From a candidate division WOR-3 bacterium (lineage in GTDB: Bacteria; Hydrothermota; Hydrothermia; Hydrothermales; Hydrothermaceae): DNA of 12,125 nt. How positions within the stretch are numbered: the stretch's first letter is position 1; each line of letters starts with the position of its first letter. A program made the position numbers. The DNA is taken from positions 1 to 12,125 of the forward strand of contig JBDRZD010000017.1 in the NCBI GenBank assembly GCA_039803745.1. Direction: 5' to 3'. Of the stretch, positions 9,001 through 12,125 are shown piece by piece.

Positions 9001-12000
9001 CTGGAAAGAAGCCTTTAACGCTGTTGAAAGATGTTTTAGAAAAAATGTTCCTGAATATGTGGGAAGGGTTGGTGAAATTTATATAACCCTTCCGGAATTT
9101 GAAAAAGAGATTGAAAATATGCCTCCCTTTGCAAGACCAAAAGATGAGAAGAGTAAGGCAGAATTTCTTGATAAGCTGTTGGAAAGAAAAATGCTGTTTC
9201 TTGAAGCAAAAGAAAGGGGGCTTTATCTTAAGAGTTCTTATATAGAAAAACTTGAAAGTTTTACTGAAAATATACTACTCAACATTTTATGGGAGGAAAT
9301 AACTTCAGAGGTAAAGGTAAGTGATGAAGAGATAAGGAAATATTATTCAGAACATTTGGATGAATATAAGATTCCTGAAAAATATAAATTTGTTAGAATT
9401 GAAGTTAAAGAAAAAAGTCTTGCTGAAGAAATTTTTAAAAGAATTAAAAAGGGAGAAAATCCTGAATCGCTTGCTTCAAAATATTCTGTTGCTCCTGATG
9501 CAAATAGAGGCGGGATTGTTGAAAACTATACAAAGGGTAGTTATCCGAAGGAATATTATGATTATGTCTCTAAAATGAAGGTTAATGAAATAAAAGTTTT
9601 TGAGATAAAGGAAAACAAAAACTTTGCAATTGTGAAACTTCTTGAAAAATTTCCAGAAAAATTAAGACCGATTGAAGAAGTGAAAGATATGATAGAAAGA
9701 AGGATTTTAACTGACAAACAAAGGGGAAGATGGAATGAATTTATTGAGGAATTAAAAAATAAATATAAGCCTGAGAATTATTTGAAAGGGGAAGATGTTA
9801 GATAAGATTTTAGAAGGAATAAAGGATTGTGTAACAAAGGAAGAACTTGAAGATAAATTAAAAAGGAAGAAAATTTTAAAAGTAAAATATGGAGCAGATC
9901 CATCAAAGCCTGATCTCCATTTGGGACACTATATATGCCTCAGGAAACTTAAAGATTTTCAAGAACTCGGGCACAGAATAATTTTTGTAATAGGCGATTT
10001 TACAGCGATGATAGGAGACCCATCAGGAAGAAGTAAGACAAGACCAAGACTTTCTGAAGAAGAGGTGAAAGAGAATTCAAAGACTTATATGGAGCAGGTT
10101 TTTAAAATACTTGATCCAGAAAAAACAGAGATTCTCTTTAACAGCAGTTGGTTATCAAAACTTTCTACAAAGGAAGTTATAGAACTTGCAGCAAAATATA
10201 CAGTTGCGAGGATGCTTGAAAGGGAAGATTTCAAAAAGAGGCTTTCCTTATCAATTCCGATTTCAATTCATGAATTTTTATATCCCCTTTTTCAAGCATA
10301 TGATTCGGTATATCTTCAAGCAGATGTTGAAATTGGTGGAGAAGACCAGTTTTTTAACTTTGCACTTACAAGAGAGATTCAAAAAGGTTTTAATCAGGAG
10401 CCACAGGTTTTTATAACAGTTCCGCTTATTGAAGGGCTTGATGGAAAATTAAAGATGTCAAAATCATATAATAATTCAATAGATTTTAATGATACACATG
10501 AGGATATGTTCGGGAAAGTGATGTCAATAAATGATGATTTAATGATAAAATATTATAAAGTTGTTTTAAGGAAATGGAATAAAGAAATTGAAAATTTTAT
10601 AAAAGAAAATCCAAGAGATGCAAAAGAAAATCTTGCCTTTGAAATCGTAAAAATATTCCATGGTGAAGAAAAGGCAAAAAAGGCAAGAGAAAATTTTATA
10701 AAAATTTTTAGAAAAAAAGAAGCACCTCTGGAAATTCCTTCATTCAAAATAAGTAGAGGTAAATTGCTTGTTGATTTAATTTATGAACTTAATTTGCTTC
10801 CTTCAAAGTCAGAAGTAAGAAGGCTTATAAGGCAAGGAGGAATTAAATTTGATAGCGAAGTGATAAAAGATGTTAATTATAAAATTTTAAATAATGGTAT
10901 TTTGAAAATAGGTAAAAGAAAATTTTTAAAGATAGAAATTTTATGAAAATATTTTTATTTGGAGCAACAGGATGGATAGGAAGACAAGTTTTAAAAGTTC
11001 TTGAGAAAATAAAATTTGATTATGAGATTTTTGCAATAACTGCTAATAAAAGAGAAGATAATCTTTATAAAATTTTTAAAAAGTGGAAGCCAAAATATGC
11101 ATTCATAACCGGTAAAAAAAGTGGTAAATATAAGGAATTTATATATGGAAAGGAAAAGATAAATGATGTTATTGATAAAAGTGATATTATAATCTTTGCA
11201 TGCAGTGGTACAGACCTCGCAGAAAATTTTTTTCATGCTTTAAAAAAAAATAAAAAAATCCTTATTTCAAATAAGGAAATAATTGTTTCCTTTGGCGAAA
11301 TTATTCCTGAAAAATATTTTGATAATATAATTCCACTTGATTCAGAGCATTCCTCTTTATTTCAATTATTAAAGAAGATTGATTTTTCAGAAATTGAAAA
11401 GATTGCAATTACAGCTTCAGGTGGTCCATTTTTTGGTAGAGAGAAATTAGAGGATATAAAATTTGAGGAAGTTTTTTTACATCCAGTTTGGAAAATGGGT
11501 AAGAAGATAACTGTTGATTCAGCAACGATGATGAATAAAGGGCTTGAAATAATTGAAGCCCATTATTTATTTAAAATACCTGCCTCAAAAATAGAAGTAA
11601 TAGTTCATCCTCAGGCAATTATACATTCTTTTATTTTAACAAAAGATGGTTTTGTTTTTTCAAACATGTTTTATCCTGATATGAAATATCCAATTTTATA
11701 TGCCCTTTCATATCCTGAAAGAAAGGAGAATGATTTTAAAAAAATAAATTTTGATGATTTGAGCCTTTATTTCCATAAAATAAATAAAGAAGAGAATAAA
11801 GCAATAGAACTTGCTTATTTTGCTGTGGATAAAAAAAACGGGTATCCAGCAGTTTTAAATTTTGCAGATGAGGAAGCAGTTAATTTATTTTTAAAGAGAA
11901 AAATAAAATTTAAGGAAATAATTCCTATTGTTGAAAAAGTTTTTGAAAGCTATGCGCCTTTTAAAGTAAAAAAATTTGATGATATAAAAGAAATTGAAAT

Positions 12001-12125
12001 ATGGACTAAGAAAAAGATTGAGGAAATTTTGAGATGAATATTTTAATCGTTTTAATTGTTTTAGGAATTCTTATAACTGTTCATGAACTGGGACATTTCT
12101 TGTTTGCTAAATTGAGAAATTGTAA

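What a model noticed while it worked through the whole genome (the two positions that open the first line are those of the whole stretch)
10943..12037. DXP synthase (Dxs) is lost in the whole order although the MEP pathway and a DXP-dependent PLP pathway are kept
The genome keeps Dxr (g00638, the place given), IspDF, IspE, IspG and IspH and, unlike the rest of its class, has the PdxA/PdxJ route to pyridoxal phosphate, which also consumes 1-deoxy-D-xylulose 5-phosphate; yet no Dxs gene exists in it or in any of the 10 other genomes of the order. DXP must come from an unknown enzyme or route; the known by-pass (RLP/cupin MTA shunt) is not encoded.
Evidence so far: Six-frame search with PF13292 over 64 genomes of the class: full-length Dxs (E 1e-95 to 1e-125) in 43 genomes of 8 families, but in 0 of 11 genomes of the order (8 of them at least 90% complete and at most 5% contaminated); their only hits (E 1e-8 to 1e-11) are the N-terminal half of the split transketolase g01164/g01163 (56%/46% id to M. 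jannaschii MJ0681/MJ0679; Transketolase_N 205.8 bits against DXP_synthase_N 42 bits; call 19), which Dxs-bearing relatives have as well. Dxr is in 11 of 11 order genomes but much more diverged there (PF02670 E 1e-12 to 1e-18 against 1e-29 to 1e-36 in Dxs-bearing relatives); g00638 is still 42-44% identical to Swiss-Prot Dxr over its whole length; IspF domai [...]
(Added by a program. Inside this text positions count along the whole contig: contig position 1 is position 1 of the stretch shown here. "Call 12" and the like, gene names such as g00115 and contig names such as C1 are that model's own, and its searches are not shown. The text may have been shortened before it was handed on; [...] marks where a part breaks off. 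The agent that wrote the report below was given it as the finding of a first reader that could run no searches.)

Follow-up and report, generated by a model that had tools for sequence, protein, structure and literature searches.

The report
MEP pathway without DXP synthase
A heat-loving uncultured bacterial order keeps every enzyme that uses the sugar phosphate DXP to make isoprenoids and vitamin B6 but has truly lost the only well-known enzyme that makes DXP, and none of the known by-passes is encoded, so its source of DXP is still unknown.

Summary
Window 10943-12037 (+) encodes an intact class I Dxr. Dxs is absent from the window's genome and from 11 of 11 genomes of its order, while 43 of 64 genomes of the class have a full-length Dxs. 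IspDF, IspE, IspG and IspH are present, and there is no HMG-CoA reductase. PdxJ occurs in 9 of 11 order genomes and in 0 of 53 other class genomes.

I add three things. Dxs is also missing, with Dxr kept, in two other families of the class (9 genomes), probably through independent losses. The known by-passes are not encoded: RuBisCO-like protein 0 of 64, xylulokinase-type kinase 0 of 5, no extra RibB, and no E1 or acetolactate-synthase-type enzyme in the window's genome. The only thiamine-diphosphate enzymes left there are ferredoxin oxidoreductases and a split transketolase whose donor pocket differs from that of Dxs-bearing relatives.

No replacement gene was identified: six candidates failed the phyletic test, and gene neighbourhoods and 236 lineage-specific proteins gave no lead. 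Dxs-less MEP genomes are already in print (PMC10663253, PMC11730185) without a mechanism. This is a solid new clade-level case of a known open problem.

The parts
10943..12037 (+). dxr, 1-deoxy-D-xylulose-5-phosphate reductoisomerase (class I), 364 aa, diverged but catalytically intact
   Evidence: It has three Dxr Pfam domains. It matches PDB Dxr structures with E down to 2.7e-62, and the metal, phosphate and loop motifs are kept. TIGR00243 scores 293 bits, below the 315.7 cut-off. Orthologues in the order are 44-73% identical and lie in the same gene order.
9795..10946 (+). tyrS (tyrosyl-tRNA synthetase); its stop overlaps the dxr start by 4 bases, so the two are probably co-transcribed
   Evidence: PF00579 scores 269 bits, with an S4 domain as well. 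The tyrS-dxr adjacency is kept in 7 of 7 other order genomes examined.
8627..9805 (+). TPR plus PpiC-type peptidyl-prolyl isomerase, part of the conserved block upstream of dxr
   Evidence: Pfam finds Rotamase and TPR domains. The block is conserved in the order, and a homologue also lies near dxr in a Dxs-bearing genome (L031), so it is not specific to Dxs-less genomes.
7672..8598 (+). PorV/PorQ-family outer-membrane protein, first gene of the conserved block; not an enzyme candidate
   Evidence: It has no Pfam hit. NCBIfam gives PorV2 at 82 bits and PorV_fam at 62 bits. It is conserved in the order.

Best explanation
SHOWN. The gene is a working Dxr in a lineage that has really lost Dxs. The cell still needs DXP for two routes. 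One is Dxr through IspH, the only isoprenoid route encoded. The other is PdxJ, which within this class is found only in this order.

INFERRED. DXP is made inside the cell by an enzyme that is not recognisable as Dxs. My single most likely mechanism is the Dxs chemistry done by another thiamine-diphosphate enzyme: pyruvate is decarboxylated to hydroxyethyl-ThDP, which is added to glyceraldehyde 3-phosphate. In the window's genome the only enzymes able to form that intermediate are five 2-oxoacid:ferredoxin oxidoreductases, one indolepyruvate-type oxidoreductase and the split transketolase. The transketolase's donor pocket is altered in this order. A low flux could be enough, because only prenyl carriers, quinones, heme tails and vitamin B6 depend on DXP.

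No step of DXP formation is shown.
For: LOSS IS REAL. 0 of 11 order genomes have Dxs, 8 of them high quality, against 43 of 64 in the class. No second TK/Dxs-like protein exists in f1.

DXP IS NEEDED. The Dxr active site is intact. IspDF, IspE, IspG, IspH, PdxA and PdxJ are present. There is no HMG-CoA reductase.

KNOWN BY-PASSES ARE ABSENT. RLP is found in 0 of 64. FGGY kinase is found in 0 of 5. RibB is present as one RibBA copy in Dxs-less and Dxs-bearing genomes alike.

THDP INVENTORY OF G000. The six TPP_enzyme_C hits are all oxidoreductase-type, and the seventh ThDP enzyme is the transketolase pair. There is no E1 and no acetolactate-synthase-type enzyme.

TRANSKETOLASE DIFFERENCES. The order's TK-C reads GEDGFTQQS where 3 Dxs-bearing relatives read GEDGASHQM. 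It also has AEANM in place of (A/Q)EQ(N/D)M, and the order's TK-N has FHG in place of WHG. The cluster [NarI-Fer4-CCG protein][TK-N][TK-C] is kept in 10 of 10 order genomes examined and in 0 of 9 Dxs-bearing relatives.

PRECEDENT. Repeated loss in three lineages of one class fits a back-up that was already there. Precedents cited in PMC10663253 and PMC11730185: a mutated pyruvate dehydrogenase E1 rescues E. coli lacking dxs. Recalled, not from a call: wild-type pyruvate dehydrogenase forms 1-deoxyketoses, pyruvate:ferredoxin oxidoreductases of hyperthermophiles release acetaldehyde, and a transketolase mutated at the two donor histidines complements dxs.
Against: No oxidoreductase or transketolase shows a distribution complementary to Dxs. 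The beta-gamma-fused oxidoreductase is also in Dxs-bearing f12 and f3 and is absent from Dxs-less f7. Four other oxidoreductase sets have 57-71% identical orthologues in a Dxs-bearing genome.

The transketolase keeps every canonical catalytic residue. Its His-to-Gln change is the one seen in human transketolase, which is an ordinary transketolase. Only 3 Dxs-bearing TK-C sequences were compared.

Dxs-less f7 and f9 have unaltered full-length transketolases with GHPE and GEDGPTHQP (5 of 7 rows usable). Transaldolase is universal (62 of 64), so the transketolase has its normal job.

The order gained a second DXP consumer (PdxJ), which sits badly with a scarce, accidental supply. No ferredoxin oxidoreductase is known to me to make DXP.
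Confidence: 0.3

Rival explanations
1. A dedicated enzyme or short pathway unrelated to Dxs makes DXP. Two routes seem chemically possible. One starts from a pentulose phosphate, through 1-deoxy-2,3-pentodiulose 5-phosphate and a reductase. The other starts from 5-deoxyribulose 1-phosphate or methylthioribulose 1-phosphate, the products of SAM by-product salvage, through an isomerase that is not an RLP. The gene would lie among the unannotated or unscanned lineage-specific proteins.
For: All known by-passes are excluded. The order even adopted a DXP-dependent B6 pathway, which suggests a reliable supply. MtnA is a clear equivalog (357 bits), and a RhaD-like class II aldolase is present, so deoxy-pentulose phosphates are formed. 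About 45 of the 236 scanned lineage-specific proteins have no Pfam family, and 197 of 433 listed candidates could not be scanned. PMC10663253 also concludes that an alternative to Dxs probably exists.
Against: No candidate emerged. MtnA-like proteins are in 62 of 64 class genomes. The short IF-2B paralogue is also in Dxs-bearing families. The class II aldolase is in the Dxs-bearing G057 and is missing from Dxs-less G027. No conserved unknown gene lies beside dxr, ispDF, ispG, ispH, pdxA or pdxJ. Nothing replaces Dxs at its old locus. Homologues of G000 proteins found beside Dxr in 78 loci of other phyla are only the usual neighbours such as rseP, cdsA, ispG, frr and pyrH.
Confidence: 0.33
2. 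The cells take up 1-deoxy-D-xylulose, DXP or a related compound made by neighbours in the hot-spring community, and feed it to Dxr and PdxJ.
For: The genomes are small (1.4-2.3 Mb). ThiG is absent in 0 of 11 order genomes while a ThiD kinase is present, which points to vitamin salvage. The one cultured member of the phylum grows only on yeast extract (PMC12285271, passages).
Against: No FGGY/xylulokinase-type kinase is encoded (0 of 5); it is the only enzyme I know to phosphorylate deoxyxylulose (recalled). No transporter lies beside the MEP genes. The dependence would have had to arise three times. Free deoxyxylulose is not known to me as an environmental nutrient. Keeping six MEP enzymes and gaining PdxA/PdxJ is an odd strategy for a scavenger.
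Confidence: 0.12
3. The absence is an artefact: Dxs exists but is missed in every bin, or is too diverged to detect.
For: All 11 genomes are metagenome bins with 20 to 270 contigs. Dxr and IspG of the order are unusually diverged, so a Dxs could be diverged too.
Against: Eight bins are 93-96% complete. Searches with two different Dxs domains and with a class Dxs sequence find only transketolase-type halves. In relatives Dxs lies on ordinary large contigs, for example a 580-kb contig of G057. The six-frame searches do not depend on gene calling.
Confidence: 0.04
4. The MEP enzymes are kept for another purpose, or Dxr acts on another substrate, so no DXP is needed.
For: Dxr falls below NCBIfam's equivalog cut-offs, and its branch is long.
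Against: All substrate-, metal- and phosphate-binding motifs of Dxr are kept. PdxJ scores well above its cut-off (260 bits against 192.75) and uses DXP itself. No mevalonate route exists. All six enzymes are kept in both families of the order.
Confidence: 0.04

Closest known systems
Dxs-less MEP genomes in the survey of Marshall et al. 2023 (PMC10663253) and Rhodothermus marinus (PMC11730185)
   Same: All MEP genes except dxs are present, there is no mevalonate route, and the mechanism is unknown. 181 of 4,400 species were missing Dxs only, and 172 of these lacked both MTA-shunt enzymes. [quoted passage not shown]
   Different: The survey covered complete RefSeq genomes only. Its supplement has no entry for Hydrothermus, Caldifarcimen or WOR-3. 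R. marinus is scored there as having both MTA-shunt enzymes, whereas this class has no RLP at all. Here the loss is fixed in a whole order, recurs in two more families of the class, and coincides with the gain of PdxA/PdxJ.
MTA-isoprenoid shunt of Rhodospirillum rubrum (RLP isomerase plus cupin methylsulfurylase), as described in PMC10663253
   Same: It is a natural Dxs-independent source of DXP. MtnA, which makes its substrate methylthioribulose 1-phosphate, is present.
   Different: No RuBisCO-like protein is found in 0 of 64 class genomes. The one small cupin, seen beside pdxJ in G008, has no homologue in G000.
E. coli dxs suppressors: mutated AceE, mutated RibB, overexpressed YajO (as cited in PMC10663253 and PMC11730185)
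   Same: They show that other enzymes can supply DXP. RibB is present here as RibBA.
   Different: There is no E1-type dehydrogenase in family f1. Only genus g4 of f2 has an E1/E2 set. There is no extra RibB copy. The aldo-keto reductase was not re-tested here.
Split-chain transketolase of Carboxydothermus hydrogenoformans (PDB 6yak/6yaj)
   Same: It is the best solved match of the order's TK-N (E 1e-93) and TK-C (E 9.7e-90). It has the same two-gene layout, and all cofactor and phosphate-binding residues are kept.
   Different: The order has Gln where this enzyme and E. coli transketolase have the donor-binding His (ASHQ becomes FTQQ), plus other pocket changes. Whether this changes donor specificity is untested.

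Membership tests
Dxr, class I DXP reductoisomerase (for ORF 10943-12037) | Three-domain architecture: NADPH-binding N domain, catalytic domain, C-terminal helical domain | tested here: met
   PF02670 66 bits, PF08436 117 bits and PF13288 96 bits, covering residues 3-357.
Dxr, class I DXP reductoisomerase (for ORF 10943-12037) | Metal-binding Asp/Glu/Glu, phosphate-binding Ser/Asn/Lys and the HPxWxMG lid loop (residue roles recalled) | tested here: met
   LDSEHS, SGGPF, HPVWKMG and DSATMMNKGLEIIEAH align with solved Dxr.
Dxr, class I DXP reductoisomerase (for ORF 10943-12037) | Score above the curated equivalog cut-off | tested here: not met
   TIGR00243 scores 293.2 against 315.7, and NF009114 scores 298.8 against 461. 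All Pfam cut-offs are passed. I read this as divergence, not as a different family.
Dxr, class I DXP reductoisomerase (for ORF 10943-12037) | Conversion of DXP to MEP with NADPH | not testable with these tools
   This needs an enzyme assay.
Dxs (DXP synthase) anywhere in the genome or order | A roughly 620-650 aa protein with DXP_synthase_N, Transket_pyr and Transketolase_C domains | tested here: not met
   PF13292 finds it in 0 of 11 order genomes. PF02779 finds only a 317-aa TK-C in f1. phmmer with a class Dxs finds only TK-C, TK-N and one oxidoreductase subunit.
MTA-isoprenoid shunt | RuBisCO-like protein (methylthioribulose-1-phosphate isomerase to methylthioxylulose 5-phosphate) | tested here: not met
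   PF00016 is found in 0 of 64 class genomes, and the control genomes ring.
MTA-isoprenoid shunt | Cupin methylsulfurylase | tested here: inconclusive
   A 108-aa Cupin_2 protein lies near pdxJ in G008 only. tblastn finds no homologue in G000 or G057. No family-wide cupin search was run.
Deoxyxylulose salvage | Xylulokinase-type (FGGY) kinase | tested here: not met
   PF00370 is found in 0 of 5 genomes: G000, G008, G027, G031 and G057.
RibB/YajO route from ribulose 5-phosphate | An altered or additional RibB, and a YajO-type aldo-keto reductase | tested here: inconclusive
   There is one RibBA copy in each of 5 genomes, Dxs-less or not. RibB residues and the reductase were not examined.
Mevalonate pathway | HMG-CoA reductase | tested here: not met
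   PF00368 is found in 0 of 5 genomes.
Transketolase (for the split pair on contig 40, considered as a Dxs substitute) | ThDP and metal motifs, catalytic His residues and phosphate-binding Arg/Ser/His of transketolase (roles recalled) | tested here: met
   Transketolase_N scores 206 bits and Transket_pyr 148 bits. GSGHPGG, SKGHG, QGHPD, GDGE, FHG, REAYG, SKST, AE, SHAG, GEDG and IRTGR align with solved transketolases. The donor His is replaced by Gln, as in human transketolase.
Transketolase (for the split pair on contig 40, considered as a Dxs substitute) | Use of pyruvate as donor (Dxs-like activity) | not testable with these tools
   This needs an assay or complementation.

The most novel reading that the evidence does not exclude
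These thermophiles make DXP with an enzyme or short pathway that has no homology to Dxs and has not been described. It may be shared by the three Dxs-less lineages of the class, and it may also explain some of the roughly 170 unexplained Dxs-less species in the published survey.
Probability: 0.35. Interest if true: 0.9.

Novelty: new member of a known kind. Interest (0 to 1): 0.6.

Why it matters
Dxs is the entry and flux-controlling step of the MEP pathway. It is an antibiotic and herbicide target and a bottleneck in terpenoid engineering. A natural, thermostable alternative source of DXP would matter for all three, and the published survey explicitly asks for one.

This clade is a useful test bed for four reasons. 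The loss is fixed in a whole order. It recurs in two more families of the same class, which gives contrasts for phylogenetic profiling. The window's family has a very small set of enzymes that could do the chemistry: no E1, no acetolactate synthase, no RLP and no xylulokinase. And the order added a second DXP-consuming pathway, which argues that its supply is dependable.

Tried and rejected
PHYLETIC TESTS THAT FAILED (present in Dxs-bearing lineages too)
- IF-2B/MtnA-like: 62 of 64.
- The NarI-Fer4-CCG protein next to the transketolase: full-length orthologues in f5, f6, f7, f8, f9 and f12.
- Beta-gamma-fused oxidoreductase: also in f12 and f3, not in f7.
- TAL/FSA aldolase: 62 of 64.
- Class II aldolase: 4 of 5, including Dxs-bearing G057.
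- RibB: one copy everywhere.

GENES NEXT TO PATHWAY GENES
- The 488-aa DHH protein beside ispDF, which is also beside TK-C in f1, is RecJ-like.
- The 180-aa gene after pdxJ is a lipoprotein.
- The 410-aa gene after mtnA is an aromatic-rich protein of no known family that looks like an outer-membrane protein, and it is not conserved in f2.
- pdxA sits in a surA-S4-pdxA operon.
- ispDF follows an 87-aa DUF4321 protein.
- The block upstream of dxr is PorV-like, PPIase and TyrRS.

POSITIONAL REPLACEMENT. In G057, Dxs lies between a TrxB-like gene and mcsA/mcsB. In G000 the gene after the TrxB-like orthologue is CcmF, and the gene before mcsA is an ABC ATPase.

COMPARISON WITH A COMPLETE DXS-BEARING GENOME. 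I fetched all 1.66 Mb of G057. 525 of 1,596 G000 ORFs have no hit in it. I listed 433 candidates: 305 soluble ORFs without a good hit and 128 extra paralogues. Of these, 236 were scanned. They are TCA enzymes, methionine and lysine synthesis, a QueD tandem, HypE, LutAB, GlcD-like oxidases, glycosyltransferases and the like. None is a DXP candidate. 197 were not scanned.

OTHER CHECKS
- The full-length 657-735 aa TK-like frames of f7 and f9 are ordinary transketolases.
- The roughly 580-aa TPP_enzyme_C protein is an IorA-type oxidoreductase, not an acetolactate synthase.
- The cupin near pdxJ occurs in G008 only.
- Homologues of G000 proteins beside Dxr in 78 loci of other phyla are only the usual neighbours.

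LITERATURE. Four searches found no described natural Dxs substitute besides the MTA shunt. Two papers on the phylum do not mention isoprenoid, MEP or dxs.
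Full report
WHAT IS AT THE GIVEN PLACE

ORF 10943-12037 (+) encodes a 364-aa protein with all three Dxr Pfam domains. It aligns over its whole length with solved Dxr structures, with best E 2.7e-62 and E. coli Dxr at 3.6e-46. The alignment shows the nucleotide-binding GATGWIG and the LDSEHS, SGGPF, HPVWKMG and DSATMMNKGLEIIEAH stretches. From recalled knowledge of E. coli Dxr, these hold the metal ligands, the phosphate-binding residues and the lid loop. 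By sequence it is therefore an intact Dxr.

It is diverged. It scores just under NCBIfam's equivalog cut-off, 293 bits against 315.7. It is only 44-48% identical to Dxr of the sister family and 37-42% identical to Dxr of the rest of the class. The order forms a long, fully supported branch in a Dxr tree of 18 sequences.

The gene overlaps tyrS by 4 bases. On the same contig, beyond the window, it is followed by rseP. The block PorV-like / PPIase / tyrS / dxr / rseP is kept in both families of the order.

IS DXS REALLY MISSING?

Yes, as far as sequence searches can show.
- The window's genome is 1.67 Mb in 100 contigs and 93.5% complete. Six-frame search with PF13292 finds only the N-half of a split transketolase and a weak hit in an oxidoreductase subunit.
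- A Dxs from a class relative, used as phmmer query against all open frames, finds only TK-C, TK-N and that subunit.
- None of the 11 order genomes has more. 8 of them are at least 90% complete and at most 5% contaminated.
- In the class, 43 of 64 genomes have a full-length Dxs in frames of about 625-720 aa.
- A second search with the middle domain of Dxs (PF02779) finds a single protein in family f1, the 317-aa TK-C.
- In relatives Dxs lies on ordinary large contigs, so systematic loss in binning is unlikely.

IS DXP STILL NEEDED?

- Dxr is present in 62 of 64 class genomes, including every Dxs-less one.
- IspG, IspH and IspF are each found in 5 of 5 genomes tested, three from the order and two from family f7.
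- In the window's genome NCBIfam names IspE (cut by a contig end), a fused IspDF, IspG, IspH, PdxA and PdxJ.
- HMG-CoA reductase is absent in 5 of 5 genomes, so the MEP pathway is the only isoprenoid route.
- PdxJ is found in 9 of 11 order genomes; the two misses are 75% and 67% complete. It is found in none of the other 53 class genomes. PdxA is in 3 of 3 order genomes tested and 0 of 2 f7 genomes.
- ThiG is absent from all 11 order genomes.

The DXP consumers are therefore Dxr and PdxJ. The order lost the DXP-making enzyme and gained a DXP-using vitamin pathway.

THE LOSS IS WIDER THAN REPORTED

Family f7 (both genera, 7 genomes, 87-96% complete) and family f9 (2 genomes, 87% and 77% complete) also lack Dxs and keep Dxr. 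The two f7 genomes tested also keep IspF, IspG and IspH. One 84%-complete f4 genome also lacks Dxs, but its genus mate has it.

In the Dxr tree f7 and f9 fall with the Dxs-bearing families, apart from the order. This suggests two or three independent losses. The caveats are that this is a single-gene tree, it is midpoint-rooted, and that part of it is unresolved.

KNOWN BY-PASSES

- No RuBisCO-like protein exists in any of the 64 class genomes, which excludes the RLP-dependent MTA-isoprenoid shunt.
- No FGGY kinase is found in 5 of 5 genomes, so the known phosphorylation of free deoxyxylulose is not encoded.
- RibB is a single RibBA in Dxs-less and Dxs-bearing genomes alike.
- Family f1 has no E1-type dehydrogenase. 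Genus g4 of f2 has an E1alpha/E1beta/E2 set.

THE THDP ENZYME INVENTORY

In the window's genome the six TPP_enzyme_C matches resolve into two groups. Five are 2-oxoacid:ferredoxin oxidoreductases, on contigs 2, 3, 10, 23 and 30. One is an IorA-type oxidoreductase, on contig 20. For three of them the domain make-up was checked on the 60-71% identical orthologues in G057. There is no acetolactate-synthase or pyruvate-decarboxylase type enzyme.

The seventh ThDP enzyme is the split transketolase. It is very like the solved split enzyme of Carboxydothermus hydrogenoformans, with E 1e-93 and 9.7e-90.

THE TRANSKETOLASE IS NOT QUITE THE SAME AS IN RELATIVES

In 10 of 10 order genomes examined, the genes lie as [NarI-like + Fer4 + two CCG domains, 644 aa][TK-N][TK-C]. 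In 9 Dxs-bearing relatives the TK-N-like gene has neither neighbour. Their TK-C lies elsewhere, beside ftsE/ftsX in the three cases fetched. Families f7, f9, f10, f11 and f12 have full-length transketolases instead.

In the alignment, 8 order TK-C sequences read GEDGFTQQS where 3 Dxs-bearing relatives read GEDGASHQM. The order also has AEANM in place of (A/Q)EQ(N/D)M. All 9 order TK-N sequences have FHG where 9 relatives have WHG or WHS. The His replaced by Gln is the one that aligns with the donor-binding His of E. coli-type transketolase. Human transketolase also has Gln there.

This is a real, order-specific remodelling of the donor pocket, but it is not evidence of Dxs activity. The Dxs-less f7 and f9 transketolases are unaltered (two of seven rows were wrong-frame picks and were dropped).

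THE SEARCH FOR A REPLACEMENT

1. Phyletic tests. MtnA-like, the CCG protein, the fused oxidoreductase, TAL/FSA, the class II aldolase and RibB are all found in Dxs-bearing lineages as well.

2. Neighbourhoods of dxr, ispDF, ispG, ispH, pdxA, pdxJ and mtnA in both families. The only order-conserved neighbours are a RecJ-like nuclease, a DUF4321 peptide, SurA and S4 proteins, and a lipoprotein.

3. The old Dxs locus. In G057 Dxs lies between a TrxB-like gene and mcsA/mcsB. The matching places in G000 hold CcmF and an ABC ATPase.

4. Whole-genome subtraction. I fetched the complete Dxs-bearing genome G057. 525 of 1,596 G000 frames have no hit in it. Of 433 listed candidates I could annotate 236. 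They explain other differences, such as the TCA cycle, methionine and lysine synthesis, QueD, hydrogenase maturation, lactate use and polysaccharide genes. None of these suggests DXP formation. About 45 have no family, and 197 were not scanned.

5. Other phyla. In 78 loci around Dxr homologues from other phyla, tblastn with the G000 proteins finds only the usual neighbours.

WHAT IS KNOWN

A relative with 66% Dxr identity carries the title 'Candidatus Hydrothermus pacificus'. NCBI places it in Caldifarciminota, the WOR-3/EM3 lineage. Two papers on this phylum, of which I read only the passages found by term search, do not mention isoprenoid, MEP, dxs or deoxy.

Marshall et al. 2023 (PMC10663253; I read the results and discussion and searched the supplement) found 181 of 4,400 complete reference genomes with every MEP gene except dxs. 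172 of these lacked both MTA-shunt enzymes, and the authors concluded that an alternative probably exists. Their tables have no entry for this lineage. The Rhodothermus marinus model paper (PMC11730185, passages) states that dxs is not found and that the source of DXP is unknown. The survey's table scores that species as having both shunt enzymes.

VERDICT

No replacement was found.

My ranking is as follows:
- The Dxs reaction as a side or second activity of a ferredoxin oxidoreductase or of the remodelled transketolase: 0.30.
- A dedicated, undescribed enzyme: 0.33.
- Uptake: 0.12.
- Artefact: 0.04.
- No need for DXP: 0.04.

The first two are too close to call on this evidence. The first names enzymes that are encoded and that could form the Dxs intermediate, which is why I give it as the working mechanism. 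The case is a new and well-suited instance of a known open problem, not a new kind of system.

Noticed in passing
window 1272-3887 (-): One 871-aa ORF joins a Ser/Thr protein kinase domain to a UvrD/PcrA-type helicase. The scan has already noted this.
   Followed up: no
window 139-1275 (-): A radical SAM protein whose weak best NCBIfam matches are cobalamin-dependent C- or P-methyltransferases (PhpK family 49 bits). Its function is unknown, and it has only a weak homologue in the Dxs-bearing genome G057.
   Followed up: partly
G000 contig 15, 5642-6475 (-) (L150:1486-2319): IspH of the window's genome is only 33-36% identical to IspH of its own family mate G001 and of G008, G027 and G031, which are 57-74% identical among themselves. 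It still passes the IspH equivalog cut-off. It is probably a xenologue in genus g1.
   Followed up: partly
G000 contig 40, 11406-15163 (-) (L014): The cluster [NarI-like + Fer4 + 2 CCG domains, 644 aa][TK-N][TK-C] is kept in 10 of 10 order genomes examined, although the CCG protein alone is widespread in the class. No reason for the link is known.
   Followed up: partly
L132, L133, L140 (family f8 TK-N-like genes): The TK-N-like proteins of f8 read SDAE where the others have the ThDP-binding GDGE. They also have GHQGGALS and WHS in place of GHPGGSLS and WHG. They may no longer be transketolase halves.
   Followed up: no
L134:2250-2558 (-) and L137:1566-1874 (+) (family f5): A 108-aa cupin directly follows the TK-N-like gene in two f5 genomes. 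It is 43% identical to the cupin found near pdxJ in G008.
   Followed up: no
G010 contig 110: G010 (family f2, 8% contamination) holds a second copy of the fused oxidoreductase that is 88% identical to the f1-type protein, beside its own 52% copy. It also has two PdxJ genes. This is probably a mixed bin.
   Followed up: no
G000 contig 12, 718-6643 (L172): An archaeal-type homocysteine synthesis gene (HcyBio, 468 bits) sits with a split MetE and a fused MetH-like/MTHFR protein. All are absent from the Dxs-bearing genome G057.
   Followed up: no
G053 (family f11, 100% complete): No Dxr C-domain match is found, although its genus mates have one and it has Dxs. This was not examined.
   Followed up: no
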